From the NCBI GenBank assembly GCA_044226285.1, contig JBGAHI010000009.1:965-64964 (forward strand): a DNA stretch of 64,000 nucleotides, in the 5' to 3' direction. Shown piece after piece: positions 12,100 to 26,137 of this stretch (positions within the stretch are counted from its first letter, which is position 1; every line of letters begins with the position of its first letter). This DNA comes from Chitinophagales bacterium (GTDB lineage: Bacteria; Bacteroidota; Bacteroidia; Chitinophagales; LD1). Made by a program: the position numbers and the translations under genes. The notes beneath the pieces are model-generated. The model had not been told where the DNA came from. It made no database searches and worked only from the letters and a program-made list of their open reading frames with translations.

Positions 12100-14256
12100 A
12101 TGAATTCTTTTTGGAAAGATTGGACACTGTTAACGCACAAAGGCCGACAGATATGGCGATTTACAAAACAGGATACGGTTACCAATGCGTATCTTCAAGA
12201 TGCAGTAAAGGCGTTTGATTTTAATAAACATATAAATCCCAATGCAGCCGATTTGGTTTATCGGAATGCAAAATTGGAAGGCCAAGATATTGGAGAACGA
12301 AATTCTGATTCCGTTGAAGATGCTTTACAACAAGCCATACATTTTTATTCGGCTATACAAACGGAAGATGGCCATTGGACAGGCGATTATGGCGGGCCAT
12401 TATTTTTGTTGCCAGGTTTAGTAGTGGCATCTGTTGTTACGAATACTTCACTACCCGCTGTTCATCAACGATTGATAGCACAGTATATTTTCAATCAGCA
12501 AAATAAAGATGGCGGTTGGGGCTTACACATCGAGGATAAATCAACTGTATTCGGAACAGTAATGAATTATGTTGCTTTGCGTTTTTTAGGTTTTGATCTT
12601 TCTGATGAGCGTATGCTATTGGCGCAAACCTGGATTCAGCAAACAGGTGGAGCTACAGGCATTCCATCGTGGGGGAAATTTTATTTGTCGTTGTTGAACG
12701 TGTATGCATGGGAAGGGAATAACACATTACTGCCTGAGTTGTGGCTACTTCCCAAGGGATTACCTATTCATCCATGGCGTTATTGGTGCCATACACGAAT
12801 GGTATATTTGCCTATGAGTTATTGCTATGCCCATCGCATTCAAATTGCCGAATCGGAATTGGTTCATGCTATTCGGAAAGAAATTTATACTACGCCATAT
12901 AATCAAATAAATTGGACAAAGGCTAAAGATGAAGTCAATGCTCTTGATGTCTATCACAAAGCATCGTCAATCCTAAATGTGTTTAATGCTTTCGCGAATT
13001 TCTATGAACGTTCTCCAATTCAACGATGGCGTAAAAAAGCGCTCGATTTTGTAAGTACATACATTGATGCAGAGGATGAGCAAACGAACTACATCAATAT
13101 TGGTCCGGTCAATCAAGTAGTTAATTCTATTGCTGTGTGGCATAAGTATGGCAAAGAGAGCGAACAATTTCAAAAACATGTTGAGCGCTGGTACGATTAT
13201 TTGTGGCTAGCTGAAGATGGCCTAAAAATGAATGGTTACAATGGATCACAGCTTTGGGATACCGCATTTGCAGTGCAAGCGTTTTGTGAATCAGATATGG
13301 CGAATTCATTTCAATCTTCAATAGAAAGGGCATATGATTTTATCGATTACTCCCAAATCAAAACTGAGGTTCGTGATTTCAATACTTACTTCCGACATGC
13401 ATCAGTAGGAGGGTGGCCATTCTCTACACGCGATCACAGTTGGCCAATCACTGATTGCACCGCAGAAGGCTTGTTGGCTTCAATGGCTGTCCACTCCACC
13501 TTCCCGGAGCTTCAACAAAAGGTGAGTTATGAACGTATGTGCCAGGCGGTTGATTTGATTCTATCTTTTCAGAATGAAGACAATGGTTGGGCTTCCTATG
13601 AATTATCACGCGGACCGAAATGGTTGGAAGTCCTTAATCCTGCAGCTGTTTTTGCTGATATAATGATTGATTATTCGTATGTGGAATGCAGTTCTTCATG
13701 TATTCAAGCCTTACATGTTTTTCATCAACACTATCCGCAATACAAAACGAACCAAGTGAAAAATGCTATTGAAACCGGATTGCGATTTTTATTATCGAAA
13801 CAGCGAGAAGACGGCTCTTGGATTGGCTCTTGGGCTGTTTGTTTCACTTACGGCACATGGTTTGCGTTGGAAAGTTTAACGAAACAGGGGTATACCTATG
13901 CTAATTCAAAATCGGTGAAAGCAGCATGCGATTTTCTTGTTGCAAAAGTAAAAGAAGATGGCGGATGGGGCGAATCCTTTGAATCTTGTGTTCGTAAAGA
14001 ATATATTCAGCATGGAACTTCACAATGTGTGAATACGGCATGGGCTCTATTATCTTTAATGGCTGCCGATTATCCGAATAAGCAACTCATCGATAAAGGA
14101 ATACAGTTGTTGATTCAACGTCAAGTTCGAAATGGAGATTGGCCACAGGAAGCTATCAGCGGTGTGTTTAATTTCAATTGCATGATTACGTATACATCAT
14201 ATAGAAATGTTTTCCCCATATGGGCTTTGGCACGTTACAAACGAAAATACAATTAG
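12100..14256 (+). CDS. osc: 2,3-oxidosqualene cyclase, cycloartenol-synthase type
   Basis: DCTAE catalytic motif (not the DDTA of SHC), GRQIW N-terminus, DYGGPLFLLPG, QW repeats (QNKDGGWG, QREDGSW, EDGGWGES), WCHTRMVYLPMSY, GYNGSQLWDTAF, GVFNFNCMITY. Confidence 0.96.
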   Translation: MNSFWKDWTLLTHKGRQIWRFTKQDTVTNAYLQDAVKAFDFNKHINPNAADLVYRNAKLEGQDIGERNSDSVEDALQQAIHFYSAIQTEDGHWTGDYGGPLFLLPGLVVASVVTNTSLPAVHQRLIAQYIFNQQNKDGGWGLHIEDKSTVFGTVMNYVALRFLGFDLSDERMLLAQTWIQQTGGATGIPSWGKFYLSLLNVYAWEGNNTLLPELWLLPKGLPIHPWRYWCHTRMVYLPMSYCYAHRIQIAESELVHAIRKEIYTTPYNQINWTKAKDEVNALDVYHKASSILNVFNAFANFYERSPIQRWRKKALDFVSTYIDAEDEQTNYINIGPVNQVVNSIAVWHKYGKESEQFQKHVERWYDYLWLAEDGLKMNGYNGSQLWDTAFAVQAFCESDMANSFQSSIERAYDFIDYSQIKTEVRDFNTYFRHASVGGWPFSTRDHSWPITDCTAEGLLASMAVHSTFPELQQKVSYERMCQAVDLILSFQNEDNGWASYELSRGPKWLEVLNPAAVFADIMIDYSYVECSSSCIQALHVFHQHYPQYKTNQVKNAIETGLRFLLSKQREDGSWIGSWAVCFTYGTWFALESLTKQGYTYANSKSVKAACDFLVAKVKEDGGWGESFESCVRKEYIQHGTSQCVNTAWALLSLMAADYPNKQLIDKGIQLLIQRQVRNGDWPQEAISGVFNFNCMITYTSYRNVFPIWALARYKRKYN

Positions 14257-15455
14257 TCTTCTTTCGTTTTGTTTTCTTTACGCCATTCGGTAGGCGTTAG
14301 TCCTGTTGCGTTTTTAAAGAACGTGTTGAAGGTTGATTTCGAGTTAAAGCCACATTCGTAAGCAATCGCAACAAGCGTTAAATGTTCGTATTGCGGATCA
14401 ATCATTCGCTTCTTTGTTTCTTCAATTCTAAATTCGTTTACGTACTCAAAAAAGTTTTTGCCTAAATGATTATTGAGTAATAATGTAATCTGATGTTTCG
14501 GAATATTTAAGTTCTGGGATAAATCCATGAGTGTCAATTCCGGATTCAGAAAGGGTTTCTGCTCGGCCATATACTGATTGATTTTCTCAATCTGTTTCTG
14601 TTTTTCAGGTGTTAAGTCGGGTTGTTTTTCTTGGTTTACTTCTGTAGGAAGATTTTGCTCAATCGGTTTTTCTGTAACAACAGCAGCGGGTTTGGTGAAT
14701 TGCTGATTTACAGTATCACTAATCATTCTGCGATAGGGTTCCTCGTCTTCATTGAATTCCGATTCGTGTTTGAACAGGTTGGGTTGCTTGATAGAAAAGT
14801 AACTCACCGAATAGGTGAGAATCATTAAACCTATGCTCGGTATCACTTCCAAATCCTTTGAATCGGATCCTGCAAAGGCTGAGTAGAAGCGCGTAATGAA
14901 ATAAATAATATAGGTTACAACATAAATTACGGATATATAATTCAACCAAAACAATCGATTTGATGTAGTGTCGTAAGAAAACATATTCATCTTAATCGAA
15001 TTCCGAAAGCTTTGCAACCAAAGGAATACAAGCACAGTGTAAATAATAGATGTAATTAAGAAAAAAGTAGAAATAGAAATGCTTAATGCAAAAGCTTGAA
15101 TGGAAAATTGATCTTTAAAAACGATAAAGTAAATCGACACTAATACTAGAAACGGTGCAAAATGTAACAACTCGTATGGCGAGAAACGTTTAGACGGGTC
15201 GCTTAAATATTTAGTATATAGGAACAAAAATGGTCCAAACGTCAAAGGAATTAAGCCAATGGAGAACTCTGCATCGAAAAATTGTCCGTGTACTTGTTCC
15301 GTTGCAATTAAGAAGAAACGTAACGCAATCGTCAACAACCACAAGATGAGAATGCGGTCGTACGTTTTCTTTTTTCCTTTAGTATAAAAAAGAAAAGCAG
15401 AGAACAGCGCTTGCGACAGTCCAATGTAGCTGAATATGGTAATGTTATTAATCAC
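14253..15455 (-). CDS. Membrane-anchored AraC-family transcriptional regulator
   Basis: About 6-7 hydrophobic N-terminal segments; C-terminal AraC HTH FLNPELTL...NFFEYVNEFRI...IAYECGFNSKSTFNTFFK. Confidence 0.92.
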   Translation of the reverse strand: MINNITIFSYIGLSQALFSAFLFYTKGKKKTYDRILILWLLTIALRFFLIATEQVHGQFFDAEFSIGLIPLTFGPFLFLYTKYLSDPSKRFSPYELLHFAPFLVLVSIYFIVFKDQFSIQAFALSISISTFFLITSIIYTVLVFLWLQSFRNSIKMNMFSYDTTSNRLFWLNYISVIYVVTYIIYFITRFYSAFAGSDSKDLEVIPSIGLMILTYSVSYFSIKQPNLFKHESEFNEDEEPYRRMISDTVNQQFTKPAAVVTEKPIEQNLPTEVNQEKQPDLTPEKQKQIEKINQYMAEQKPFLNPELTLMDLSQNLNIPKHQITLLLNNHLGKNFFEYVNEFRIEETKKRMIDPQYEHLTLVAIAYECGFNSKSTFNTFFKNATGLTPTEWRKENKTKED

Positions 15456-15884
15456 CTATTTATATCTTGTCCATTTTCGTGTTTTGCCTAAAAAGCGGAA
15501 CCACCACCAATAGCCTTTGATGTAGAGTACATCGTTTTCGATATACATTATGGCATTATAATCGCTACCTCCATCAAAATAATAGTAATTTCCATCGTTC
15601 CATGAAGTGCCGTTACGCTTACCTTTTAAGCCGGTTAATACATCTATGCCTATTATCTTTCTACTGCGTAGTTTTGGATTTTCGTTGTAGATATCTCTTC
15701 TGATTTCTCCATTTTCATCTAAAGAATCTTTCACCCAAACCAGTTTCCCAAAAATCAGATTGTTCTTCTCGTAAAATTGGATGCGCATATCTTGGGTTTC
15801 GTTTGTCCATAATCCTTCTGTAATTGACGTTTGTGCAAAACAGTCAATAGATAAGAACAATAAAACAATCCAAAAGTATTTCAT
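15456..15884 (-). CDS. DUF2147 domain secreted protein
   Basis: Signal peptide; ITEGLW...GKLVW...DIYNENPKLRSRKIIG...LYIKGY...GKTRKWTR. Confidence 0.8.
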   Translation of the reverse strand: MKYFWIVLLFLSIDCFAQTSITEGLWTNETQDMRIQFYEKNNLIFGKLVWVKDSLDENGEIRRDIYNENPKLRSRKIIGIDVLTGLKGKRNGTSWNDGNYYYFDGGSDYNAIMYIENDVLYIKGYWWWFRFLGKTRKWTRYK

Positions 15885-15894: not shown

Positions 15895-16860
15895 TTACTT
15901 TTCTCTATTGCGAAGCAAATGGGCTAGTTCAAACAATGGTTTTTTGTTTTCTTCCTTAGCGGTGATGGCCGTTAAATTCTTGATGGCTTTTTTATAATAG
16001 GCATCAATCAAATCTTCCGTGTATTGCTTTGCCCCAGTTTGATCCATCAATACCAACATCTCTTTTACTTTCTTACGTTTGTCTTTTTCTGTAAGCAATG
16101 CAGCAATTTTTTTGCGTTGCGTTGGATTGGCTAATTCAATGGCTTTCAACAAAAGAATGGTTTTCTTATTGAGTATAATATCACCACCTGCCCGCTTTCC
16201 CACTTTCTTTGGATCTCCATATGCATCTAAAAAGTCATCGTGAATTTGAAACGATAAGCCTAAGTTCAATCCAAATTCATAAATATTCTTTTGCGATTTC
16301 TTATCGGCATCTGCAATCCATGCTCCCATTTGCAACGCACCGGCCAATAACACAGACGTTTTGCCTTTAATCATTTCCAAGTATTCCGTTTCTGAAACAT
16401 TATCTCTGGTTTCGAATTCCATATCTTTCGATTGGCCTTCAATTACTTTCACTACCGTATCATTGAAAATTGCATACAACTCTTGAATGTTGTCTTTCTT
16501 GATTTTACCCAAATAGCCGTACGATTGAGTAAACATCATATCTCCGGTGTTGATGGCTACATTGTTACCGTAAATCTTATGCACGGTTGGATTCCCTCTT
16601 CGTGTAGTGGCCTTATCCATAATGTCGTCATGCACCAAAGTAGAATTGTGATATACTTCAACCGCCAACGCAGCCGGTAATGCAGTTTTCAAATTGCCAT
16701 TAAACAAATCGCAACCCATTAAGGTGAGTGCCGGACGAATACGCTTACTGCTCATCGCCATAATGTATTGCATGGCACGATAAACATCATAACGTTCATC
16801 AAACGATTGTTCTGCATAATATTTTTCAAACATAGCGACTAACTCGGTGTACGATTTCAT
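15895..16860 (-). CDS. Polyprenyl diphosphate synthase (FPP/GGPP synthase family)
   Basis: KRIRP, FARM HDDIMD..TRRG, GQSKD, GKTS, SARM FQIHDDFLD, GKRAGGDI. Confidence 0.93.
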   Translation of the reverse strand: MKSYTELVAMFEKYYAEQSFDERYDVYRAMQYIMAMSSKRIRPALTLMGCDLFNGNLKTALPAALAVEVYHNSTLVHDDIMDKATTRRGNPTVHKIYGNNVAINTGDMMFTQSYGYLGKIKKDNIQELYAIFNDTVVKVIEGQSKDMEFETRDNVSETEYLEMIKGKTSVLLAGALQMGAWIADADKKSQKNIYEFGLNLGLSFQIHDDFLDAYGDPKKVGKRAGGDIILNKKTILLLKAIELANPTQRKKIAALLTEKDKRKKVKEMLVLMDQTGAKQYTEDLIDAYYKKAIKNLTAITAKEENKKPLFELAHLLRNREK

Positions 16861-16944: not shown

Positions 16945-17862
16945 TCAAAATAGTTTTGGCAAAAATCGTGGTGTCTTTTTGATATAATCTTTGTAGCCTT
17001 CATACTTCTCGCTCGAAATACTCTCACTAAAATCGGCACTGCCCTGAAAGAGCAGCATAAGCAATAACGCTCCGGTTACCGACCAATTCAAATATCTCCC
17101 CGTTGCCACAATGGTGAACAAGAAAAAGGTAACCCAAATACTCTGCTCCGAGGCGTAGTTCGGGTGACGAACGTGTTTCCACAAGCCCGAGTGCACAAAG
17201 CCTTTTCCGTAATACTCTCCCAATGGTTCACCGACATTCATTCTGCGGTGTTTCTCGTTTTGATAATTCCATTGTTGTTGATCGGCAATGGTTTCAATCG
17301 CTACGAAGCCTAGGTAAACGATAGCCAAAATATAATCACCAATCGTTAACTGCTGGCTATCGGCCTGAAATGCCATCACAGCAGGCAATGTGAACAGCCA
17401 AATTAATGTGTTTTGATAGAGCGAAATAAACCCCAGATTAAAGATGGTCCATGTAAAACGATTTTGCAGGAATGGCTTTTTGCGTAGAACATCCCAACGA
17501 TAGTCTTCATGGCCTTCCCAGAATTTTAACTTGTAAGCACCTCTTCTGCCAAAGTTATAGGTAAGTCGAACGCCCCAAATAGTGGCTAATACAGCCATCA
17601 ACACTAATCGCGGACTCCAATCACTTTCGTAAGCAAAGAGCCATGTATAGAGGATAGGCGTGATGCTCCACAATTTATCGACCTGACTGCAATTGTTCGT
17701 TAATTCGCTTACAACAAAGCATGTTAATGCAACACCTAACATTAATAACCCCGAATGTTGTAGCATTTGAATTTGTAATGCAGAAAGCGGCTGATCGAAT
17801 TGTATGGCTACAAAGGGAACTACAATAATCGTAACGATGAGAATGAAAATAGTTTTTAGCAT
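16945..17862 (-). CDS. DUF1295 steroid-reductase-like membrane protein
   Basis: SQVDKLWS, WGVRLTYNF, EDYRW, ETIADQQQW, GLWKHVRHPNY.SEQ. Confidence 0.88.
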   Translation of the reverse strand: MLKTIFILIVTIIVVPFVAIQFDQPLSALQIQMLQHSGLLMLGVALTCFVVSELTNNCSQVDKLWSITPILYTWLFAYESDWSPRLVLMAVLATIWGVRLTYNFGRRGAYKLKFWEGHEDYRWDVLRKKPFLQNRFTWTIFNLGFISLYQNTLIWLFTLPAVMAFQADSQQLTIGDYILAIVYLGFVAIETIADQQQWNYQNEKHRRMNVGEPLGEYYGKGFVHSGLWKHVRHPNYASEQSIWVTFFLFTIVATGRYLNWSVTGALLLMLLFQGSADFSESISSEKYEGYKDYIKKTPRFLPKLF

Positions 17863-17871
17863 ATCTAAATT

Positions 17872-19272
17872 TTAAAGTGCAATCTGTTTTTTTCTAAATA
17901 TTTTATTGCCCAAACGTAACCACATTTTTGTTGTGTTGTTTTGTACTTCATTGTTTAAAAGTGGATAAATAATGGCATAAGCATCGCCTACCATGTAATA
18001 CGCATCAACCATTGAAGCTATTCCTGGATTTTTATTTACTTTCTTCATTCCACCTTTCGCTGCTACAGCAAAAAAGTGTTTGGCTAAAGTGGTTTTGCTT
18101 TTATCGATTCCTGAAAGTAAGGCAATAGGCTCTTCTGCTTGCTTTCCTCCCGCTGCTAAATAATTAAAACAGGCTTCTTTCAAATCATGATTGCTCATTA
18201 CTTTGTAAAGCGCATCTGCTAAAATATTTACTGCAGTATTTTGTGTTCGCGAAGCATAGAATGCACGAATCAATTCCATTCGGTTTTCAGTAGTTTCTAT
18301 TGACATCGTTTTCAATAACTGTTGTATGCTGTTCACATCGCGAAGGGTAACCGTCATGCCTCCACCGGTGAGCGGATGACGCATATTCAGCGCATCACCA
18401 AGCACTACCACACCATCCTGCATAATCGGTTTGCCCGGCAAATAATGGTTTGGCATTACCTTGAATTTTCCTTCTAGCATGCATACATCAAAAGCTTTGT
18501 GCATACTTTCCGGAATACGACTGCGCACATGTTGGTGGAGGTATTGTACCAACTCCTCGCTTTTTCGCGGTGGTTGATGGCCCGGGAAGTCAATTAAAAA
18601 TCGGATTTCATTTTTCGTTATGGGGTAACATAAAAACGGTGAGGACTCAGTCAAAAATACATGTCCGTGTTCAGCAACTGGCAGCGGACAATCTTTCAAA
18701 ACAATACCTAAGAAGTAACCGGTAACGGTTGCTGCTACTTCAGTGGTTTGTTTTCGAAATGTAGAAAAGAAGCCATCCATTACGATGGTTAGTTTTGCAT
18801 TTATTGCGATCGATTGTCCTGCTTTATCTCTGCAATAAATACCTGCAATTCGATTTCCTTTTTCGTGGATGAACGTTTGCGCTTCCGCTTCAATTCGCTT
18901 GATGTTATTGCCTTTTGTTAATTCATCACGCATTTTCTGCACAAATTTTCCATTCGTTAATCCCAAGCCGAATTTCCCTTCCGGATAAGCAATGTGTAAT
19001 GGCGTATCGTCTTTCATAATGGTGTAGCCTGTTATGCGTTGGGCATCATACCCATCCAGCAAATGCTCTAATTGCATCGCTTTCAGTTGTTCAACGCCAT
19101 CGGGTTGCATCAGTTCGCCAACAATGCGATCTTGTTCGCGCCAGTCTTTCTCAACAATAATTACTTTTAGCTTTTGATTCGCTAAGCTACACGCCAAGGC
19201 AGCTCCTGCAACCCCGGCACCTATGATACAAATATCAGCATCATGGTGAATAAGATTTGTTTCGTTCATCAT
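17872..19272 (-). CDS. Squalene monooxygenase (epoxidase), SQLE/ERG1-like
   Basis: FAD motif IIGAGVAG, DRIVGELMQPDG, DGFFSTFRK, GDALNMRHPLTGGGMTV, NILADALY. Confidence 0.95.
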   Translation of the reverse strand: MMNETNLIHHDADICIIGAGVAGAALACSLANQKLKVIIVEKDWREQDRIVGELMQPDGVEQLKAMQLEHLLDGYDAQRITGYTIMKDDTPLHIAYPEGKFGLGLTNGKFVQKMRDELTKGNNIKRIEAEAQTFIHEKGNRIAGIYCRDKAGQSIAINAKLTIVMDGFFSTFRKQTTEVAATVTGYFLGIVLKDCPLPVAEHGHVFLTESSPFLCYPITKNEIRFLIDFPGHQPPRKSEELVQYLHQHVRSRIPESMHKAFDVCMLEGKFKVMPNHYLPGKPIMQDGVVVLGDALNMRHPLTGGGMTVTLRDVNSIQQLLKTMSIETTENRMELIRAFYASRTQNTAVNILADALYKVMSNHDLKEACFNYLAAGGKQAEEPIALLSGIDKSKTTLAKHFFAVAAKGGMKKVNKNPGIASMVDAYYMVGDAYAIIYPLLNNEVQNNTTKMWLRLGNKIFRKKQIAL

Positions 19273-20438
19273 TAAAAAATTATTGGATTCGTTAATCTTT
19301 GTCCGAGTGCCAGTTTAATTTGGCAGATGCTTCCCCACATTGTAGCCGGAGTGTTTTTACTGTCTTGCATTTTTTCTTCCAACTCTTCGATGAAGTGAAG
19401 CATCATCTGTTTTGTACTTTCGAAATCACGCGTTTCCATCATGATTTTAGCCGATAGACCTTTTCTGATTTTTACATTTTTGCGAAACACTTCCGGGTTA
19501 TCATACAATTCAACAAGTGTGGCAATGGCCATCAATTGCGGAATAGCGCAGAAACGGAAAATTTGCATGTTCTGCAATTGACTCAAATAGTTGATGCAAT
19601 CGGGTAAATGGCGAATCGCATCCTCAATCATACAGTTCAAGCCTTTTAGTGAAGTGCTGCTTTCGGGCATGGATTTGAAAAGCGACAACGCTGTATGATG
19701 TTTATCCCAAATTTCGTTGGGCCAGAAAATGCGGTTCACTTCGAAATCTTCTAAGAAATCACGTGTGATATTCGTTTTCTGCAAAAACAAACCCATAGAA
19801 TTAGCGATGGTCATTTCTGAAGCCAATCCTTCTGCTTCAAAACCTGATGCGGAAAACAATTGACTTAAACCTTGTCCCACCAAACCGGCTACATAATGAC
19901 AATAAATATCGTAGTCCTGAATGGTTGTAATTTTGTAAGAACCCGAATCGGCCATGCCATTCCCCATGCGGAAACAGATATCGGAAATCACTTCCTTATA
20001 TTCCGGTTTCAGTTGAATGAACGAGCGCGTTACTTTATCGAAATGTTGCAACAACAAACGATAATCTTCTGTGTCGCCAATGCCTGTTAATGTGAAATCA
20101 GATAAGTAGCACGATTTGTAAAAATTACGCAGTAAACGTTCTTTTTCCGTTTCATCTAGCTCCATATCGTCTTCCACCGTATCGAGTCCGCGAAGCACCA
20201 AATAGAAAATGCCTACCGCTTCCTTTAATTCTTGCGGTAATTGTTGAATCACAATGGCGAACGAACGCGATACCTTTGTGAGGGCATCAAAACAGAACGC
20301 CATATCAGATCTAGTTAGCGCAGCTTCTGCTAAATTGATTTCACCCTGTTTGGGTTTTTCGCTGATGGAAAATTTAAGTAATGCCTTCAACTCCGAAGGA
20401 TGCGAAGCCGATTTTATTAAGTTTTTTAGTGTGCTCAT
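19272..20438 (-). CDS. Squalene synthase, FDFT1/ERG9-like
   Basis: VSRSFAIVI, FYLVLRGLDTVEDDM, YCHYVAGLVG, MGLFLQKTNITRDFLED, FRFCAIPQLMAIATL, VKIRKG. Confidence 0.95.
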   Translation of the reverse strand: MSTLKNLIKSASHPSELKALLKFSISEKPKQGEINLAEAALTRSDMAFCFDALTKVSRSFAIVIQQLPQELKEAVGIFYLVLRGLDTVEDDMELDETEKERLLRNFYKSCYLSDFTLTGIGDTEDYRLLLQHFDKVTRSFIQLKPEYKEVISDICFRMGNGMADSGSYKITTIQDYDIYCHYVAGLVGQGLSQLFSASGFEAEGLASEMTIANSMGLFLQKTNITRDFLEDFEVNRIFWPNEIWDKHHTALSLFKSMPESSTSLKGLNCMIEDAIRHLPDCINYLSQLQNMQIFRFCAIPQLMAIATLVELYDNPEVFRKNVKIRKGLSAKIMMETRDFESTKQMMLHFIEELEEKMQDSKNTPATMWGSICQIKLALGQRLTNPIIF

Positions 20439-20457
20439 ACGTTGTGTTTTAGTGATG

Positions 20458-20465
20458 CAAACCTA
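20458..20465 (-). promoter_or_regulatory. -7 element of squalene synthase operon
   Basis: TAGGTTTG on the minus strand, 19 nt before the ATG at 20438; no clear TTG -33 element. Confidence 0.55.
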
Positions 20466-20792
20466 GGTTAGGGGTAGCCCTTTGGCGTATGTATCGAGCA
20501 GCAGACGTATGCTTATCCCACTTTTGTTTAAACGAACACTCAAAAAACTGAATATCAGTTTATTGTGAATTTATTTTTAGCGGTCGAATGGAGCGATTTT
20601 GCGTATTCGAACGAAATGGAACCAACAAATGAATATTTATAAAGCGTTGATAATCATTTGTGTGTAAATTTGACCAACTAAGCCTTTAACGAGGTCGTTT
20701 TGGGGCGTGTATTTGGTTTATCCGAACTTAAAACGGTTCAAAAAATCGAAACCTTAAGCTTTATGCGTAAATTCGCCTCGGAAAATAAATAC

Positions 20793-21806
20793 ATGAATTT
20801 AGACCCAACAGCCGAGCAGCGGAAAAAAGATCACATCGATTTAGCGTTTCAATCGCAGATTCAAACTAGCGAATTAGACCATCGCTTTTTCTACGAGCCG
20901 ATGTTATCTGCACATCCTTCCAATGCCCTTCCACCTTTTTCTTTTTTAGGAAAAACGATGAAGGCGCCTATTTGGATTTCGTCTATGACGGGGGGAACCG
21001 GACCGGCACGACACATTAACCAAAACCTCGGACGCGTTTGTGGTGAATTTGGTTTAGGTATGGGCTTAGGTTCAACGCGTGCATTATTGGATAGCGATCA
21101 GTTTTTTGCCGATTTCGATTTACGTCAGTTAATTGGCAACGATCATCCCTTCTTTATTAATTTAGGTATTGCACAAATCGAAAAATTATTGTCTTCCGGC
21201 ACATTTGAAAAAGCAATTGCGCTTACCGATAAGTTACAAGCCGATGGTATGTTCATTCACGTGAACCCGATGCAGGAATGGTTGCAACCTGAGGGGGATC
21301 ATATCAGTCGTCCGCCACTCGAAACCATTGCTGAAGTATTGAGTTTGTATGCTAAACCTGTGATTGTAAAAGAAGTCGGTCAGGGTTTCGGACCGGAAAG
21401 TATAAAAGCATTATTGCAAATGCCTTTGGCGGCTATCGATTTTGCTGCTGCGGGAGGAACCAATTTTGCGAAAATTGAATTGTTGCGTTCAGATATGCAG
21501 AAGCAACAGATTTTTGATGCGTTTGCGAAAGTGGGGCACTCTGCAGCAGAAATGGTGGATTTTACGAATGCCGCTATTGCTGAGTTAGGCGATAAGGTGA
21601 AAGTGAAAGAAGTAATAATTTCCGGTGGAGTGAAAAACTACCTCGATGGTTATTATCTGATAAGCAAATCGAAGCTTCCTGCTGTTTATGGTCAGGGAAG
21701 TGCGTTGTTGCAATATGCAGGAGAATCGTACGAAAGTTTAAAAGCTTACGTTGAAAGTCAAATAAAAGGATTAACTTTTGCCAATGCTTTTTTGCGAATA
21801 AAGTGA
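20793..21806 (+). CDS. fni: Type 2 isopentenyl-diphosphate delta-isomerase
   Basis: RKKDHI, ISSMTGG, HVNPMQEWLQPEGD, VKEVGQG, GGTNFAKIE; start taken at MNLDPT 20793. Confidence 0.93.
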   Translation: MNLDPTAEQRKKDHIDLAFQSQIQTSELDHRFFYEPMLSAHPSNALPPFSFLGKTMKAPIWISSMTGGTGPARHINQNLGRVCGEFGLGMGLGSTRALLDSDQFFADFDLRQLIGNDHPFFINLGIAQIEKLLSSGTFEKAIALTDKLQADGMFIHVNPMQEWLQPEGDHISRPPLETIAEVLSLYAKPVIVKEVGQGFGPESIKALLQMPLAAIDFAAAGGTNFAKIELLRSDMQKQQIFDAFAKVGHSAAEMVDFTNAAIAELGDKVKVKEVIISGGVKNYLDGYYLISKSKLPAVYGQGSALLQYAGESYESLKAYVESQIKGLTFANAFLRIK

Positions 21807-21892: not shown

Positions 21893-23221
21893 ATGAGTAA
21901 AGAAATACAAGGTTTTTCGAAGATGTCCAAAAAGGAGAAGATCCAGTGGATGGCGAAGAATTTCCTTTATGCGAATCCAATTGATGTGATGAAAGAGTTT
22001 GCCGGTTTTTGGCACGATAACATCGAAGCACAAAAGCTTTTAGATGGATTCAGCGAAAACACATTAACGAACTTTCCGGTGCCTTTCGGTATCGCACCGA
22101 ACTTCATGATCAATGGCGAGATTTACGCTGTGCCAATGGTGATTGAAGAAAGCTCGGTAGTAGCTGCTGCTTCGAATGCCGCTAAGTTCTGGTTAAGTCG
22201 GGGTGGCTTCAAAGCGAAAGTGATTTCGTCTACAAAGGTTGGACAAGTGCATTTTCAATTTGATGGCGATAAAGAAAAATTGTTTTTCCTTTTCAATACA
22301 GAAATAAAAGCTAAGCTTCTTCAAGCGGTGAAGCCCATTACGGCTAACATGGAGAAAAGAGGAGGAGGTGTGAAAGACTTGGAATTGATTGATTTCACAT
22401 CTATAGAACCCGATTACTATCAGATTCGTTGCTATTTTGAAACAGTAGATTCTATGGGCGCGAATTTTATTAATTCATGCTTGGAGGAATTCGGAAAGTC
22501 TTTGGTAGATATTATTTCGAACGATGCACGCTTCAATTTGGAAGAGCAAAGCATAGAAGTAATTATGTGTATTCTTTCGAATTACACACCGGAATGTGTG
22601 GTGAAAGCAGAAGTAGAATGCAATGTAGATGAACTCGGTTCTTTCGATGATGGCAAGATGAAAGCCCGCGAATTTGCTGCTCGTTTTGCAAAGGCTGTTC
22701 GCATTGCACAAATCGATCCGTATCGCGCCACAACACATAATAAAGGAATTATGAATGGCATTGATGCCGTAGTGTTGGCTACAGGTAACGATTTCAGGGC
22801 GATTGAAGCTTGTGCGCATACTTATGCAGCGCGCGATGGACAGTATAGAAGTTTATCGGAATGCACCATTGAAAACAATATTTTCAATTTCAGTTTAACC
22901 ATTCCATTAGCGGTTGGAACAGTAGGTGGATTAACTTCTTTGCATCCATTGGCAAAGCGTTCATTGGAAGTATTGGGCAATCCATCTGCACATCGCTTGA
23001 TGGAAATTATTGCAACGGTTGGCTTAGCGCAAAACTTTGCTGCTGTGAAATCGTTGACTACTGTTGGTATTCAGAAAGGGCACATGAAAATGCACCTCAC
23101 CAATATTTTGGCATCGTTCCAAGCAACAGATGCAGAAATGGAAAAGGCGCGTGAATATTTTGAAGATAAAACCGTTTCCGTTTCCGGTGTTCGTGAATAC
23201 CTGTTAGACATCCGAAAATGA
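21893..23221 (+). CDS. mvaA: Class II HMG-CoA reductase
   Basis: SENTL, PMVIEESSVVAAAS, DSMGANFINS, RATTHNKGIMNG, GNDFRAIEA, GIQKGHMKMH. Confidence 0.96.
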   Translation: MSKEIQGFSKMSKKEKIQWMAKNFLYANPIDVMKEFAGFWHDNIEAQKLLDGFSENTLTNFPVPFGIAPNFMINGEIYAVPMVIEESSVVAAASNAAKFWLSRGGFKAKVISSTKVGQVHFQFDGDKEKLFFLFNTEIKAKLLQAVKPITANMEKRGGGVKDLELIDFTSIEPDYYQIRCYFETVDSMGANFINSCLEEFGKSLVDIISNDARFNLEEQSIEVIMCILSNYTPECVVKAEVECNVDELGSFDDGKMKAREFAARFAKAVRIAQIDPYRATTHNKGIMNGIDAVVLATGNDFRAIEACAHTYAARDGQYRSLSECTIENNIFNFSLTIPLAVGTVGGLTSLHPLAKRSLEVLGNPSAHRLMEIIATVGLAQNFAAVKSLTTVGIQKGHMKMHLTNILASFQATDAEMEKAREYFEDKTVSVSGVREYLLDIRK

Positions 23222-24144
23222 GTGCTGCCACTTTTTATGCCTCGGGCAAATTACTGCTCTCCTCTGAATACTTTATCTTAGATGGTGCGCAAGGACTTGC
23301 CATTCCTACTGTATACGGACAACGAATGGATGTAACGAACTTGCCTACACATACCAATACTTTGTATTGGAAAGCATTTACATCCACTCAAACACTATGG
23401 TTGGATTTGGTGTTTGATAAACAAACATTGCAAGCAACTACCGATTGCAAAGAAGCCAATATGCTCTCGTTAATGCTCCAAAAAATACGCGAACAACAAC
23501 CCGATTTCTTGCTGAGTGACAGCGATGTAGAAGTTGCTACATACCTTGAATTTCCTAATGCCTGGGGCCTAGGTTCCAGCTCTACTTTATTGGCTTGTTT
23601 AGCGCAATGGCTTAATATCGATTGGTATACATTGTTGAAAGCAACTATTGGCGGTTCAGGATATGATGTAGCTTGTGGATTAGCCAAAACACCTGTTTTG
23701 TATAGCATTGAAGCCGGTCGGCCGGTTGTGAAATCTGTTGTTTTCCAACCTAAATTTTCGGAACAACTCTATTTTGCTTATTTGGGAAAGAAGCAATTGT
23801 CGTCACAAGGCATTCAGCATTATAAAGACAAAGCACAAGATAAAGCCGCAATTGCACTTCAATTGACAGCTATCACCACAGCAATGCTCAACTGCTCTAC
23901 CTTGAATGCTTTTGAAACATTGTTAGAAGAGCACGAACTCATTATTAGCAATGCGTTGGGAATGGAACGTGTGCAGCAAAGTGTGTTCCCTGATTATTGG
24001 GGAAAAGTGAAATCGTTAGGTGCATGGGGTGGCGATTTTGTTTTATTAACGAATAACAGAACAGAAAAAGAACTACGCGATTATTTACAGCAAAAAAATA
24101 TTGATGTTGTTTTTAGCTTTAGCGAATTAATATTGAAATCATAA
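23218..24144 (+). CDS. GYDIA-family GHMP kinase, probable phosphomevalonate kinase
   Basis: GKLLLSSEY, WGLGSSS, GSGYDVAC, KSLGAWGGD; ATGA overlap with mvaA. Confidence 0.8.
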   Translation: MSAATFYASGKLLLSSEYFILDGAQGLAIPTVYGQRMDVTNLPTHTNTLYWKAFTSTQTLWLDLVFDKQTLQATTDCKEANMLSLMLQKIREQQPDFLLSDSDVEVATYLEFPNAWGLGSSSTLLACLAQWLNIDWYTLLKATIGGSGYDVACGLAKTPVLYSIEAGRPVVKSVVFQPKFSEQLYFAYLGKKQLSSQGIQHYKDKAQDKAAIALQLTAITTAMLNCSTLNAFETLLEEHELIISNALGMERVQQSVFPDYWGKVKSLGAWGGDFVLLTNNRTEKELRDYLQQKNIDVVFSFSELILKS

Positions 24145-24146
24145 GT

Positions 24147-25196
24147 ATGAATACGATAAAAAAAGTAACCTGGCAGAGTCCTTCAAACATTGCGCTCATC
24201 AAGTATTGGGGCAAGCACGGCAATCAGTTGCCGAACAACCCTTCCATTAGTTTCACATTGGAGGAGTGTTATTCTGAAACTACTTTGGCCATTGAGCCTA
24301 AGACAGGTTCAAGCAATGAAATCGAATTGCGTTTTTATTTCGATAAGAAAGAGAACCTTGCGTTTCGTTTGAAGATCTTGCAATTCTTCGAATCTATCCA
24401 CAAAGAGTTTTCGTTTTTGCGTGATTACTCGATTGTGATTCACTCGATGAATTCGTTTCCGCATTCATCAGGTATTGCATCTTCGGCATCATCCATGAGC
24501 GCTTTGGCTTTGTGTTTGTGTTCTATGGACGATATGTTGAACAAACGCAAAACGCCTAAAGACGACTTCTTCGCTCGTGCTTCTCACTTTGCACGTTTAG
24601 GTTCAGGCAGTGCTTGTCGTTCGGTATATCCGGTGATGGCCTCGTGGGGTAAGAACAAACACATTAAAAATTCATCCGATAAATTTGCTACTGATTGTAG
24701 CGATTGGATCCATCCGATTTTCAAAACATTTCAGAATTCGATTTTGATTGCTTCGGCATCCGAGAAAAAAGTATCGAGTCGCGTGGGGCATTCGTTGATG
24801 GAAACCAATCCGTTTGCTACCGCACGTTACAAGCAAGCCAACGATAATTTGAATACACTGATCAAAGCCTTAATGACAGGCGATTTGGACACCTTCGGGG
24901 AAATTGTAGAAACAGAAGCACTAACACTTCATGCTTTAATGATGTGTTCTACGCCTTCATTTACATTGATGACACCGAACACATTGGCGATGATTGAAGC
25001 CATTCGCGATTTCCGTGAAAGCTCTCAGATTCCGGTGTACTTTACTTTAGATGCCGGTCCGAATATTCACTTGTTGTATCCAAATAAATTCAAAAGCAAA
25101 GTGCACGAGTTTATTGAACTCGAATTGAAACAATTCTGCGAAAACGGTCGCGTTATTTTTGATGCCGTAGGCAAGGGTCCGAAATTGATTAAGTAA
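24147..25196 (+). CDS. mvaD: Diphosphomevalonate decarboxylase
   Basis: SPSNIALIKYWGK, NPSISFTL, GIASSASS, ARLGSGSACRS, FTLDAGPNIH. Confidence 0.95.
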   Translation: MNTIKKVTWQSPSNIALIKYWGKHGNQLPNNPSISFTLEECYSETTLAIEPKTGSSNEIELRFYFDKKENLAFRLKILQFFESIHKEFSFLRDYSIVIHSMNSFPHSSGIASSASSMSALALCLCSMDDMLNKRKTPKDDFFARASHFARLGSGSACRSVYPVMASWGKNKHIKNSSDKFATDCSDWIHPIFKTFQNSILIASASEKKVSSRVGHSLMETNPFATARYKQANDNLNTLIKALMTGDLDTFGEIVETEALTLHALMMCSTPSFTLMTPNTLAMIEAIRDFRESSQIPVYFTLDAGPNIHLLYPNKFKSKVHEFIELELKQFCENGRVIFDAVGKGPKLIK

Positions 25197-25219
25197 CAAC
25201 AACGAACAATTCAGAGTCT

Positions 25220-26137
25220 ATGCAACGTAAGGCAATAGCATTTCAAACATTTCCATCCAAAGTACTTTTGTTTGGTGAGCATATCATCAATAAAGGCGCA
25301 CAAGGCTTGGCTATTCCTTCTCGTTTGTATAGTGGAAAACTCACGTATTCGAAAAACGATTCGGAGGAAGACAAAAACTCCAATCATTCGTTAGCGCAAT
25401 TAGCCAATTACATTATTGCAAATCCTGAATTAGAAAAACATATTGCCATCAACGATTTTCTTACCGCCATTGAACGCGGTTTAGTTTTCGATTCTAATAT
25501 CCCACAAGGTTATGGCATGGGCAGTTCAGGGGCGCTGGTCGCTGCTGTGCTTTCTGCATACGGACATGCTGCAATATTGGATAGTGATATTCAATCCATT
25601 AAAAACTTTTTAGCTGCCATGGAAAGTTGCTTTCATGGACGAAGTTCAGGGCTTGATCCTATTGTAGCTTATTTACAGAAACCTTTGCTGGTGTCTATGA
25701 AGGAAACACAAGTGGCATTGTTCAAAAAAAGTCCGGCTCCGGTGTTTGATGTAAGTTTGTTTGATACCGGTGTGCCGCGTAAAACAGCCGATTGGGTACG
25801 TTTATTTATGGAGCGAACACAGCAACATGCATTTGGTGAAATCGTTGAAAAATCGATGCTTCCGGCCAATCAAATTTGTATTGATGCGATGTTGAATTTG
25901 AAATATGTTCCGTTCTGGAAATCGCTGAAATTGATTTCGCAATTGCAGTTCGATTATATGCAAGACTTTATACCAAAAGCATTTCACGGTGTATGGAAAA
26001 ACGGCTTGCTCAATAATGAATATTACCTCAAAATCTGTGGTGCCGGTGGAGGTGGCTTTATTCTATGTTTTTCAAAAGCGAATACCGACTTATCCAACTT
26101 CCGCTTTGCAGAAAGACATGAAGTGATGAAATTCTAG
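25220..26137 (+). CDS. mvk: Mevalonate kinase
   Basis: SKVLLFGEH, IPQGYGMGSSGA, FHGRSSGLDP, KICGAGGGG. Confidence 0.9.
   Translation: MQRKAIAFQTFPSKVLLFGEHIINKGAQGLAIPSRLYSGKLTYSKNDSEEDKNSNHSLAQLANYIIANPELEKHIAINDFLTAIERGLVFDSNIPQGYGMGSSGALVAAVLSAYGHAAILDSDIQSIKNFLAAMESCFHGRSSGLDPIVAYLQKPLLVSMKETQVALFKKSPAPVFDVSLFDTGVPRKTADWVRLFMERTQQHAFGEIVEKSMLPANQICIDAMLNLKYVPFWKSLKLISQLQFDYMQDFIPKAFHGVWKNGLLNNEYYLKICGAGGGGFILCFSKANTDLSNFRFAERHEVMKF

What the first reader, a model, noticed from the sequence alone, without database searches (positions are those of the whole stretch)
12100..26137. Contiguous mevalonate-to-sterol supercluster in a Bacteroidota genome, with three unexplained embedded genes
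Seen: 12 adjacent genes cover HMG-CoA -> mevalonate -> IPP/DMAPP (mvaA, mvk, GYDIA kinase, mvaD, fni) -> prenyl-PP -> squalene (SQS) -> 2,3-oxidosqualene (SQLE) -> cyclised sterol (OSC). The MVA arm and the squalene arm diverge from one intergenic region. Established: sterol synthesis is rare in bacteria; Bacteroidetes examples such as Fluviicola taffensis and Eudoraea adriatica exist; many bacteria make squalene with HpnCDE and cyclise it with SHC. Inference: this is a co-regulated sterol production unit, and DUF1295, DUF2147 and the membrane AraC are dedicated accessory parts. No CYP51, cyclopropyl isomerase, sterol methyltransferase, SdmAB or BstABC homologue is visible in the window.
Basis: partly seen in the sequence, partly recalled or inferred. 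Interest (0 to 1): 0.9.

Follow-up and report, generated by a model that had tools for sequence, protein, structure and literature searches.

The report
Bacterial sterol operon with conserved regulator pair
An uncultured wastewater bacterium carries a real gene set for making a plant-type sterol next to its ordinary isoprenoid genes, and two of the three mystery genes (a membrane-bound switch protein and a small secreted lipid-binding protein) travel with sterol genes across related bacteria, which makes them the first testable candidates for sterol control or transport in this group.

Summary
All 12 genes lie at the stated coordinates.

- **MVA arm.** It is the organism's only IPP route: IspH was not found in a 100% complete genome. 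It is also housekeeping: HMGR occurs in 30 of 41 relatives, including 9 without OSC.
- **Full 12-gene arrangement.** It is seen only in G000, G003 and G005, of 22 OSC-positive genomes.
- **OSC.** It carries the Y381/H449/I453 cycloartenol-synthase triad and none of the arborinol substitutions.
- **DUF1295.** It is not co-conserved with OSC.
- **DUF2147 and the membrane AraC.** They form a fixed two-gene module. AraC has 7 predicted TM helices plus an HTH.
  - Full-length AraC orthologues occur in 12 of 22 OSC-positive relatives and 0 of 19 OSC-negative relatives.
  - A species-wide scan found 25 loci. DUF2147 is directly upstream in 22, sterol genes lie within 10 kb in 12, and OSC is in the genome in 20.
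  - The module sits in four different linked architectures.
- **DUF2147 family.** It is related to the lipocalin HP1028. A preprint proposes DUF2147 ("HpnT") as a hopanoid carrier.

Best reading: a cycloartenol operon with a dedicated membrane regulator and a periplasmic sterol-binding protein.

The parts
12100..14256 (+). Oxidosqualene cyclase, predicted cycloartenol synthase
   Evidence: Pfam SQHop_cyclase_N and _C; TIGR01787 over its cut-off. Best PDB match is human lanosterol synthase, E 8.9e-217, against SHC at 1.6e-41. Residues in human numbering: W230, H232, Y381, H449, I453, D455, Y503, F521, N697. It is the only cyclase in the genome.
14253..15455 (-). 7-TM membrane-anchored AraC-family regulator; last gene of the SQS operon, convergent with OSC
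   Evidence: HTH_18/HTH_AraC at residues 313-393 only. Seven hydrophobic segments fall in residues 1-225, with a KGKKK loop after TM1. No Pfam family covers the N-terminal domain. Orthologues are found only in OSC-positive relatives.
15456..15884 (-). DUF2147 secreted lipocalin-like protein, directly upstream of AraC with no gap
   Evidence: PF09917, 76 bits. PDB 4inn HP1028, E 6e-5. An N-terminal signal-peptide-like segment is visible in the sequence. It lies directly upstream of the AraC orthologue in 22 of 25 loci.
15895..16860 (-). trans-polyprenyl diphosphate synthase; likely the FPP supplier, chain length not established
   Evidence: PF00348, 250 bits. All NCBIfam equivalogs score under their cut-offs. 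It is one of two such genes in the genome. It lies next to OSC or SQS in 7 of 21 OSC regions.
16945..17862 (-). DUF1295 membrane protein (steroid-reductase/ICMT superfamily); a lineage-specific insertion
   Evidence: PF06966, 140.7 bits. It lies in the cluster only in G000, G003 and G005. Its C-terminal motif aligns weakly with the genome's ERG4/ERG24 homologue, E 0.096.
17872..19272 (-). Squalene epoxidase (SQLE)
   Evidence: PF08491, 259 bits, plus an FAD-binding N-terminus. Its distribution across relatives is identical to that of OSC: the same 22 of 41 genomes.
19272..20438 (-). Eukaryote-type squalene synthase, first gene of the operon
   Evidence: TIGR01559, 414 bits against a 286.75 cut-off. 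A conserved TAnnTTTG-like element sits about 20-27 nt before the start in four diverged lineages.
20439..20699 (.). Divergent intergenic region between SQS and fni
   Evidence: Sequence printed. It holds the TAGGTTTG element at about 20458-20465 (- strand) and a GTTCGAAT / ATTCGAC pair further upstream. These are weak motif leads.
20700..21806 (+). Probable type 2 IPP isomerase (divergent)
   Evidence: TIGR02151, 193.7 bits, under the 281.3 cut-off; no Pfam hit.
21893..23221 (+). Class II HMG-CoA reductase
   Evidence: PF00368, 303 bits; TIGR00532, 273 bits against a 259.95 cut-off. Present in 30 of 41 relatives.
23218..24144 (+). GYDIA-family GHMP kinase (presumed phosphomevalonate kinase)
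   Evidence: NF040656, 342 bits against a 225 cut-off.
24147..25196 (+). Diphosphomevalonate decarboxylase
   Evidence: TIGR01240, 179 bits against a 171 cut-off; MVD-like_N and MDD_C domains.
25220..26137 (+). Divergent mevalonate kinase-like GHMP kinase
   Evidence: GHMP_kinases_N; TIGR00549, 85 bits, under the 163 cut-off.

Best explanation
The region holds two units that lie back to back.

**Unit 1: the sterol operon.** The order is SQS-SQLE-DUF1295-polyprenyl synthase-DUF2147-AraC. Gaps are 0-10 nt apart from one of 84 nt. A convergent OSC completes the unit.
- Inferred chemistry: FPP to squalene to 2,3-oxidosqualene to cycloartenol.

**Unit 2: the housekeeping mevalonate operon.** The order is fni-HMGR-GYDIA kinase-MVD-MVK. 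It is the cell's only source of IPP.
- Its adjacency to unit 1 is a recent arrangement of one species group. It is not a conserved 'supercluster'.

**The three embedded genes.**
- DUF2147 and the AraC form a conserved module tied to sterol genes across Chitinophagales-type lineages.
- Proposed mechanism for AraC (inferred, not shown): it senses sterol, a sterol precursor or the membrane state through its seven-helix membrane domain, and it sets transcription of the SQS operon and of itself.
- Proposed mechanism for DUF2147 (inferred, not shown): the secreted lipocalin-like protein binds the sterol in the periplasm. It acts either as a carrier towards the outer membrane or as the ligand-presenting partner of the sensor.
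- DUF1295 is a superfamily relative of sterol reductases that was inserted into the operon only in this species group. It may act on the product, for example as an ene-reductase, but it is not a conserved part.
For: **Gene identities and the sterol product**
- Gene identities.
- OSC carries the CAS triad Y381/H449/I453. W230, H232, F521 and N697 are retained (alignment). The same triad occurs in 20 of 20 orthologues examined.
- The triad rule and the I453-cycloartenol correlation come from PMC4919349, section 14. The arborinol substitutions come from PMC12324236.
- SQLE is present in the same 22 of 41 genomes as OSC.

**MVA is housekeeping**
- IspH was not found in the 100% complete genome; the control rang in 9 of 14 genomes.
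- HMGR is in 30 of 41 relatives, including OSC-negative G002, G010, G011, G012, G027, G030, G034, G036 and G039.
- The MVA genes are adjacent to sterol genes only in G000, G003 and G005, and partly in G017 and G023.

**The DUF2147-AraC module**
- Full-length AraC orthologues occur in 12 genomes, all OSC-positive: 12 of 22 against 0 of 19.
- The best DUF2147 hits (40% identity or more) always abut that AraC.
- The pair lies next to SQS/SQLE in 11 of those 12 genomes.
- The genome-contig scan used the membrane domain alone and returned 25 loci. Nine of them are genomes already in the relatives set.
  - DUF2147 is directly upstream in 22 of 25.
  - SQS, SQLE or OSC lies within 10 kb in 12 of 25.
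  - OSC is in the genome in 20 of 25.
- Four different linked gene orders exist. Linkage has therefore survived rearrangement.

**Family context**
- DUF2147 matches the lipocalin HP1028, PDB 4inn, E 6e-5.
- A preprint independently finds DUF2147 genes near shc/hpnN and proposes a periplasmic hopanoid carrier (passages read).
- AraC has seven predicted TM segments with the HTH on the cytoplasmic side.

**Possible expression**
- Contigs from 4 RNA libraries of 4 studies cover OSC, AraC, DUF2147, PPS, DUF1295, SQLE, SQS, HMGR and MVD.
- They bridge the junctions AraC|DUF2147, DUF2147|PPS, PPS|DUF1295, DUF1295|SQLE and SQLE|SQS.
Against: **No direct test**
- No lipid, binding or regulatory data exist. 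The product call rests on three residues.
The lipocalin fold and any DUF2147-AraC contact are therefore untested here.

**Gaps in the association**
- Ten OSC-positive relatives (genera g3 and g4) have no AraC orthologue. The module is not required for sterol synthesis.
- Five of 25 module-bearing genomes showed no OSC (L075, L078, L080, L084, L085). Their completeness is unknown. Their sizes are 2.1, 3.7, 1.7, 2.1 and 4.4 Mb.
- In 13 of 25 loci the neighbours are unrelated housekeeping genes.
- Relatives are not independent, so the counts overstate the number of events.

**Weak or qualified evidence**
- The membrane domain belongs to a large family: 2071 representatives at E<=1e-3, mostly of the same 360-400 aa build. 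The architecture is generic and only a subfamily is sterol-linked.
- The candidate operator motif is weak and inconsistent.
- RNA-library contigs can stem from DNA and do not show a single transcript.
- HMG-CoA synthase was not found with PF08540.
Confidence: 0.68

Rival explanations
1. All 12 genes form one co-regulated sterol production unit, and DUF1295, DUF2147 and AraC are all dedicated accessory parts.
For: - The 12 genes are contiguous and share one divergent intergenic region.
- The same order occurs in G003 and G005.
- HMGR-GYDIA also abuts SQLE-SQS in G017 and G023, so MVA-sterol proximity arose at least twice.
- DUF1295 is bridged to both neighbours by near-identical RNA-library contigs.
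Against: - MVA is the sole IPP route. It is present in 9 OSC-negative relatives.
- The MVA operon lies on another contig in G006, of the same genus.
- DUF1295 is in the cluster in only 3 of 22 OSC-positive genomes. Its orthologues occur in OSC-negative G010 and G027 and have no conserved neighbours.
Confidence: 0.1
2. The DUF2147-AraC pair is a general envelope or lipid-stress module with no specific link to sterols. Its position near sterol genes reflects shared ancestry within a few Chitinophagales lineages.
For: - 13 of 25 loci have no sterol gene within 10 kb, and their neighbours are unrelated.
- No OSC was found in 5 of 25 genomes.
- 10 OSC-positive relatives lack the module.
- The 7TM-AraC build is common: 518 representatives at E<=1e-10.
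- DUF2147 paralogues occur widely, including two more in G000.
Against: - 0 of 19 OSC-negative relatives have the orthologue.
- 20 of 25 module genomes have OSC, a rare gene in bacteria.
- Four different linked architectures exist. In one of them AraC is the first gene before SQS-SQLE without DUF2147 (L082, L083).
- L075 and L084 share synteny with L079, whose genome does have OSC. Some of the 'negatives' may therefore be incomplete bins.
Confidence: 0.2
3. The cyclase makes a non-sterol triterpenoid, for example an arborane or parkeol-type product, or the pathway is silent.
For: - OSC scores below the TIGR03463 cut-off.
- Bacteroidetes OSCs of Eudoraea make arboranes.
- No CYP51-like P450 or SMT was found.
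Against: - None of the four arborinol substitutions is present, and the CAS triad is complete.
- The catalytic D455 and Y503 are present.
- RNA-library contigs cover OSC, SQLE and SQS.
- The CAS-type OSC of Fluviicola taffensis goes with cycloartenol (PMC4919349).
Confidence: 0.1

Closest known systems
Fluviicola taffensis OSC/SQMO (Bacteroidetes cycloartenol producer; Wei et al. 2016, PMC4919349; passages read)
   Same: It is a CAS-type OSC (I453) together with squalene monooxygenase in a Bacteroidota genome. The paper's table lists no downstream sterol-modifying homologues. The expected product, cycloartenol, is the same.
   Different: This lineage's relatives are labelled Chitinophagales, not Flavobacteriales. 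Here SQS, SQLE, PPS and OSC are clustered with a regulator-lipocalin pair. The paper's text has no occurrence of 'gene cluster' or 'adjacent'. I did not measure identity to the Fluviicola protein.
Eudoraea adriatica eudoraenol (arborane) synthase (Banta 2017, as summarised in PMC12324236; passages read)
   Same: It is a Bacteroidetes OSC acting on oxidosqualene.
   Different: The arborinol determinants W230S, H232Y, Y521V and N697Y are all absent here. This protein has W, H, F and N at those positions.
HpnT: DUF2147 proteins near shc/hpnN in Hyphomicrobiales/Rhizobiales (bioRxiv 10.1101/2025.07.29.667474; passages read)
   Same: It is a DUF2147 domain protein with a signal peptide that sits next to polycyclic-triterpenoid biosynthesis genes. 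It is proposed to be a periplasmic lipid carrier of lipocalin type.
   Different: - The lipid there is a hopanoid and the host an alphaproteobacterium; the partner is the RND pump HpnN.
- Here the lipid would be a sterol and the host a Bacteroidota member; the fixed partner is a 7TM-AraC regulator.
- Only weak, sub-cut-off HpnN-like hits exist in the genome.
- That paper's function is itself only a hypothesis.
BstABC sterol transport proteins of Methylococcus (eLife 2024, PMC10942540; search listing and abstract only)
   Same: They are a bacterial system that handles endogenous sterols in the envelope. This is the role I propose for DUF2147.
   Different: The protein families are different. 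No homology was tested here because no model or sequence was at hand.
Eukaryotic SREBP-SCAP/Insig sterol feedback (recalled; no call)
   Same: It works alike in concept only: a polytopic membrane domain senses sterol and controls transcription of sterol-synthesis genes.
   Different: There is no homology. Here a single polypeptide would carry both the sensor and the DNA-binding domain, and no proteolytic release is implied.
Bacteroidetes mevalonate gene cluster with divergent MVK/PMVK (Hayakawa 2017, as cited in PMC6107057; passages read)
   Same: It has class II HMGR, MVD and two highly divergent GHMP kinases in one cluster. This explains the sub-cut-off MVK score.
   Different: Nothing material; this arm is ordinary. 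HMG-CoA synthase was not found with PF08540.

Membership tests
Oxidosqualene cyclase, cycloartenol-synthase type | Two cyclase domains and the catalytic Asp of the xxDCTAE motif (human D455) | tested here: met
   PF13249 and PF13243. 'ITDCTAEG' aligns to human 'VSDCTAEA'. D is present in 20 of 20 orthologues.
Oxidosqualene cyclase, cycloartenol-synthase type | Y381/H449/I453 triad (LAS has T381, C or Q449, V453) | tested here: met
   Y, H and I in the window protein and in all 19 relatives aligned. The rule is from PMC4919349.
Oxidosqualene cyclase, cycloartenol-synthase type | NCBIfam TIGR03463 (2,3-oxidosqualene cyclase subfamily) curated cut-off | tested here: not met
   689.6 bits against an 851 cut-off. 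The general model TIGR01787 is passed: 679.6 against 322.7.
Oxidosqualene cyclase, cycloartenol-synthase type | Cycloartenol as the product | not testable with these tools
   Needs expression and GC-MS.
Bacterial arborinol/eudoraenol synthase | W230S, H232Y, Y521V, N697Y | tested here: not met
   W, H, F and N at these positions.
Squalene synthase (eukaryote type) | TIGR01559 over its cut-off | tested here: met
   414 bits against 286.75. HpnC and HpnD models score far below their cut-offs.
Squalene epoxidase | SE domain plus an FAD-binding fold | tested here: met
   PF08491, 259 bits; FAD_binding_3; a GAGVAG motif is visible at residues 18-23.
AraC/XylS transcription factors | C-terminal double HTH | tested here: met
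   HTH_18, 62 bits, at residues 313-393.
AraC/XylS transcription factors | Known ligand-binding or dimerisation N-domain (cupin or similar) | tested here: not met
   No Pfam or NCBIfam family covers residues 1-270. Seven hydrophobic segments lie there instead. The ESM Atlas neighbours are unnamed.
DUF2147 / HP1028-like lipocalins | PF09917 domain and homology to the solved lipocalin HP1028 | tested here: met
   76.1 bits against a cut-off of 27. PDB 4inn, E 6e-5, over residues 34-140.
DUF2147 / HP1028-like lipocalins | Eight-stranded lipocalin barrel with a hydrophobic cavity; sterol binding | not testable with these tools
HpnT (hopanoid-associated DUF2147) | Neighbourhood of shc/hpnN | tested here: not met
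   The genome has no SHC; its single cyclase is the OSC. Only weak RND hits under the HpnN cut-off were found.
Sterol reductases (ERG4/ERG24, 5-alpha-reductase superfamily), as a home for DUF1295 | Match to PF01222 or PF02544 | tested here: not met
   Only PF06966, plus a faint ICMT hit at E 0.03. The C-terminal motif aligns to the genome's ERG24 homologue at E 0.096.
Classical mevalonate pathway operon | HMGR, MVK, PMK, MVD and IDI all present | tested here: inconclusive
   HMGR, MVD and the GYDIA kinase score over their cut-offs. MVK and fni score under theirs. HMGS was not found with PF08540.

The most novel reading that the evidence does not exclude
The 7TM-AraC is a bacterial membrane-embedded sterol sensor that feedback-controls the sterol operon. 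It would be a one-polypeptide functional analogue of eukaryotic SREBP/SCAP. Its invariable partner DUF2147 is a periplasmic sterol-binding lipocalin that either feeds the sensor or ferries sterol to the outer membrane. Together with the proposed HpnT this would make DUF2147 a general carrier family for polycyclic triterpenoids.
Probability: 0.3. Interest if true: 0.85.

Novelty: new variant of a known kind. Interest (0 to 1): 0.6.

Why it matters
Bacterial sterol synthesis is known from few lineages. I know of no described regulator for it. That statement is recalled, and it fits two results:
- The search for 'sterol', 'Chitinophagales' and 'oxidosqualene' returned no paper.
- The search for 'AraC', 'oxidosqualene cyclase' and 'bacteria' listed 15 of 50 papers. 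None of those titles deals with a bacterial regulator, and 35 were not seen.

This locus adds two things:
- **A new group of likely producers.** A family of uncultured, Chitinophagales-labelled bacteria carries CAS-type OSC in 19 of 24 sampled genomes. These bacteria are common in activated-sludge, wastewater and bioreactor metagenomes. That matters for reading cycloartenol-derived steranes and for sterol budgets in engineered ecosystems.
- **Two concrete, cheap-to-test candidate genes.** One would show how a bacterium senses or regulates its sterol, and the other how it moves it. The parallel with the independently proposed hopanoid-linked DUF2147 (HpnT) hints at a shared solution for all polycyclic triterpenoids.

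Tried and rejected
- Structure prediction of the AraC (alignment A1) and DUF2147 (A2): the tool was not accepting jobs and was later switched off. No fold search was therefore possible.

**Searches that gave nothing usable**
- ESM Atlas search of AraC residues 1-240 returned only unnamed membrane-protein clusters.
- The sigma-70 promoter and terminator scan of 11000-27000 found fewer promoter-like sites than shuffles (25 against 46.9) and an average number of terminators. It is uninformative, and Bacteroidota promoters differ from the consensus used.
- Operator search. The 7-mer GTCCGAA/TTCGGAC is enriched upstream of module or SQS genes: 8 of 25 regions against 0.34 expected from mononucleotide shuffles. 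Its positions, orientation and copy number are inconsistent, and 11 of 25 regions have no copy even with one mismatch. I keep it only as a lead.

**Downstream sterol genes considered and rejected as parts of the unit**
- The ERG4/ERG24 homologue on C5. Orthologues of 70% identity or more occur in OSC-negative G011 (100% complete) and G010. They were not found in OSC-positive G005, G006, G007, G015, G021 and G022.
- The single P450. Its best PDB matches are 7wzl and BM3-type enzymes, with no CYP51 among the 60 listed.
- Sterol_MT_C: no hit, but the control rang nowhere, so this says little.
- The count of FA_hydroxylase paralogues is higher in OSC-positive relatives but is confounded by family.

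**Neighbourhood checks**
- DUF1295 orthologues in 10 other genomes have no conserved partner.
- The neighbours of unlinked module loci are unrelated housekeeping genes.

**Coverage gaps in what I saw**
- Parts of the stretch without RNA-contig cover (for example 21146-21679, 23282-23815 and 25418-25951) are no evidence of silence.
- Supplementary files of papers were closed. Santana-Molina 2020 (Fig. 5 and supplements) and the hopanoid preprint (Tables S3, S8) may show gene neighbourhoods that bear on novelty, and I could not see them.
- The metagenome-contig scan and the search for homologous proteins were not used.

Full report
**1. Observation**

ORF listing and Pfam/NCBIfam scans confirm twelve contiguous genes between 12100 and 26137.
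- On the minus strand lies a tightly packed row: SQS (20438-19272), SQLE (19272-17872), DUF1295 (17862-16945), polyprenyl synthase (16860-15895), DUF2147 (15884-15456) and an AraC-family protein (15455-14253).
- The AraC gene's end overlaps by 4 nt the end of the plus-strand OSC (12100-14256).
- Diverging from SQS across 20439-20699 lies fni-HMGR-GYDIA kinase-MVD-MVK.
- SQS, HMGR, MVD and the GYDIA kinase pass curated cut-offs. OSC passes the general cyclase model but not TIGR03463. fni and MVK score under their cut-offs. Divergent MVK and PMVK in Bacteroidetes are reported in PMC6107057.
- The window is G000:C10 of a 3.62-Mb genome in 12 contigs, 100% complete, with a single triterpene cyclase.
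- G003 and G005, independent assemblies with 94-100% protein identity, show the same genes and flanks. The arrangement is not an assembly chimera.

**2. What the cyclase makes**

The best solved relative is human lanosterol synthase (E 8.9e-217), far above SHC.
- In that alignment the window protein has Y, H and I at human positions 381, 449 and 453. Wei et al. list this triad as the cycloartenol-synthase signature. They found I453 to correlate fully with cycloartenol in the bacteria they tested (PMC4919349, section 14).
- The four substitutions that give arborane products (230S, 232Y, 521V, 697Y; PMC12324236) are absent.
- All 20 OSC sequences I aligned from this group share the triad and the catalytic Asp. 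In 11 of them position 697 lay beyond the fetched stretch.
- Inference: the product is cycloartenol, as in Fluviicola taffensis.

**3. Distribution**

OSC and SQLE occur in the same 22 of 41 genomes sampled around G000: 19 of 24 in the same family, without G000.
- Record titles of related loci carry Chitinophagales, Chitinophagaceae or Saprospiraceae MAG labels. This is not the Flavobacteriales lineage of the two known Bacteroidetes examples.
- No paper in the library holds 'sterol', 'Chitinophagales' and 'oxidosqualene' together.

**4. The mevalonate arm is housekeeping**

- IspH was not found in the complete genome, while the control rang in 9 of 14 reference genomes. MVA is therefore the only IPP route.
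- HMGR is present in 30 of 41 relatives, among them nine without OSC.
- MVA genes touch sterol genes only in G000, G003 and G005. HMGR-GYDIA alone does so in G017 and G023.
- In G006, of the same genus, HMGR is on another contig than the sterol cluster.
- The 'supercluster' is therefore a local juxtaposition. Proximity arose at least twice, which may reflect mild selection.

**5. DUF1295**

A search of the 41 genomes shows the following.
- The gene lies beside SQLE only in G000, G003 and G005.
- Orthologues of 54-80% identity lie elsewhere in nine other OSC-positive genomes (G008, G009, G013, G014, G016, G017, G020, G023, G025).
- They also occur in OSC-negative G010 (88% complete) and G027 (100% complete).
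- In eight OSC-positive genomes (G006, G007, G015, G019, G021, G022, G024, G032) only paralogues of 36% identity or less, or nothing, were found.
- Ten orthologue neighbourhoods share no partner gene.
- The protein belongs to the reductase/ICMT superfamily. Its C-terminal motif aligns weakly with the genome's ERG4/ERG24 homologue (E 0.096). A fungal DUF1295-like enzyme is an ene-reductase (PMC8597850).
- It may have been recruited in this species group, but it is not a conserved accessory part.

**6. DUF2147 and AraC are a module tied to sterol genes**

*AraC orthologues*
- Full-length AraC orthologues, with the membrane domain included, were found in 12 genomes, all OSC-positive: G000, G001, G003, G005, G006, G007, G015, G018, G021, G024, G025 and G032.
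- That is 12 of 22 OSC-positive against 0 of 19 OSC-negative genomes. The five genomes each of genera g3 and g4 lack it.

*DUF2147 and position*
- The best DUF2147 hits (40-97% identity) always lie directly upstream of that AraC. In G025 a second hit at another place scores slightly higher. Weaker paralogues lie elsewhere.
- The pair abuts SQS/SQLE in 11 of the 12 genomes. In G025 it is 217 kb from SQLE.

*Species-wide scan*
- I scanned one genome per species (185,579 species) with the membrane domain alone (alignment A3). It returned 25 loci, nine of which belong to genomes already counted.
- DUF2147 is directly upstream in 22 of 25. SQS, SQLE or OSC lies within the 10-kb flanks in 12 of 25.
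- OSC is in the genome in 20 of 25.
- The five without OSC are bins of 1.7-4.4 Mb and unknown completeness. Two of them (L075, L084) share local synteny with L079, whose genome has OSC.

*Four linked gene orders*
- SQS-SQLE-(PPS)-DUF2147-AraC.
- SQLE-SQS diverging from DUF2147-AraC.
- OSC diverging from SQLE-DUF2147-AraC-SQS.
- OSC diverging from AraC-SQS-SQLE, without DUF2147.

Linkage kept through rearrangement argues for function. Relatedness of the genomes means the raw counts overstate the number of independent events.

**7. What the two proteins look like**

*AraC*
- It has an AraC HTH at residues 313-393 and no known family before it.
- Hydropathy gives seven membrane segments in residues 5-222, counting the moderately hydrophobic, invariant GLIPxTFGPF segment.
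- A lysine-rich first loop places the N-terminus outside and the HTH in the cytoplasm.
- Periplasmic loops are short, so sensing within the bilayer is the more natural reading.
- A profile of the domain finds 2071 cluster representatives at E<=1e-3 and 37 at E<=1e-30 among 1.84 billion. Most are 360-400 aa. The build is a wide family of which the sterol-linked proteins are one branch.

*DUF2147*
- It has a signal-peptide-like N-terminus.
- It matches the H. pylori lipocalin HP1028 (4inn, E 6e-5).
- A 2025-26 preprint found DUF2147 genes enriched near shc/hpnN in Hyphomicrobiales. It named them hpnT and proposed a periplasmic hopanoid carrier. This is an independent precedent for a DUF2147-triterpenoid link.

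**8. Mechanism proposed**

*Shown*
- Gene order, family membership and co-occurrence.

*Inferred*
- The SQS promoter lies in 20439-20699. A TAnnTTTG-like element is conserved about 20-27 nt before the start in four diverged lineages. That this is the Bacteroidetes -7 consensus is recalled.
- The operon runs through to AraC, so the regulator would be autoregulated.
- The 7TM domain reads sterol, a precursor or bilayer state and tunes the operon.
- DUF2147 binds the sterol in the periplasm.

*My odds*
- The module is functionally tied to sterol: about 0.65-0.7.
- AraC regulates the operon: about 0.45.
- DUF2147 binds sterol: about 0.4.

**9. Expression hint**

- Contigs from four metatranscriptome libraries of four studies (bioreactor, activated-sludge and wastewater labels) lie on OSC, AraC, DUF2147, PPS, DUF1295, SQLE, SQS, HMGR and MVD. 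They bridge five gene junctions of the minus-strand row.
- Two near-identical contigs of X16 bridge both sides of DUF1295.
- Such contigs can come from contaminating DNA and do not prove a single transcript.

**10. Downstream chemistry**

- In the window there is none.
- Elsewhere the genome has an ERG4/ERG24 homologue (4quv, E 8e-54) whose distribution does not follow OSC.
- It also has one P450 that is not CYP51-like.
- It has no Sterol_MT_C hit, though that control was uninformative.
- It has twelve FA_hydroxylase-family genes.
- The simplest expectation is unmodified or lightly modified cycloartenol.

**11. Verdict**

- The sterol cluster is a new member of a known kind.
- The 'supercluster' and the DUF1295 claims are not supported.
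- The DUF2147 plus 7TM-AraC module is a new, well-supported association with a testable mechanism.
- Interest 0.6.
- Three tools that would have helped were closed: structure prediction, complex prediction and earlier findings.

Noticed in passing
G000:C5:358895-360211 (L086:6892-8211, - strand): An ERG4/ERG24-family sterol-reductase homologue. Its best PDB match is the Delta14-sterol reductase 4quv, E 8e-54. It lies beside an NAD-epimerase-like gene and a PadR regulator. It is 70-97% conserved in the family, but it is present in OSC-negative G011 and G010 and was not found in OSC-positive G005, G006, G007, G015, G021 and G022. Its substrate is unclear.
   Followed up: partly
G000, 12 places (five on C7:164140-293138): Twelve FA_hydroxylase (PF04116, ERG3/ERG25-type) paralogues in a 3.6-Mb genome. 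OSC-positive relatives tend to have more (2-12) than OSC-negative ones (0-6), but this is confounded by family.
   Followed up: partly
Upstream of SQS in L016, L020, L041, L058, L060 (genus g3, no AraC orthologue): Three to four copies of a palindrome-like repeat (GCGAAAWWTTCGC type) lie within about 120 nt before SQS. It is a candidate operator for a different regulator in the lineages that lack the AraC module.
   Followed up: no
G017:C33 and G023:C13 (L030, L026): SQS-SQLE-HMGR-GYDIA kinase lie co-directionally, with OSC diverging. This is a second, independent juxtaposition of MVA and sterol genes.
   Followed up: no
whole genome G000: HMG-CoA synthase was not found with PF08540, although the genome is 100% complete and relies on MVA. 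The source of HMG-CoA is open. Only one family model was tried.
   Followed up: partly
window 678-752 and 1543-1617 (+): Two Flavo-1 RNA motifs over the gathering score, 59.1 and 49.4 bits.
   Followed up: no
window 20439-20699; L070 upstream of SQS: ATTCGGAC-like words are enriched upstream of module or SQS genes (8 of 25 regions). In L070 two copies lie 21 nt apart as a direct repeat. This is a weak candidate AraC site.
   Followed up: partly
window 11376-12185 (-) and 10693-11364 (-): A DUF2306 membrane protein has its longest ORF overlapping the OSC start by 86 nt; the true start is probably later. A short NAD(P)-binding protein lies upstream of OSC. Both are conserved only in G003 and G005, with a 46% DUF2306 homologue about 4 kb from OSC in G024.
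   Followed up: no
G000:C5:378304-379527 (L087:6238-7578, - strand): The only P450 of the genome. It is nearest to 7wzl and BM3-type enzymes, not to CYP51.
   Followed up: partly
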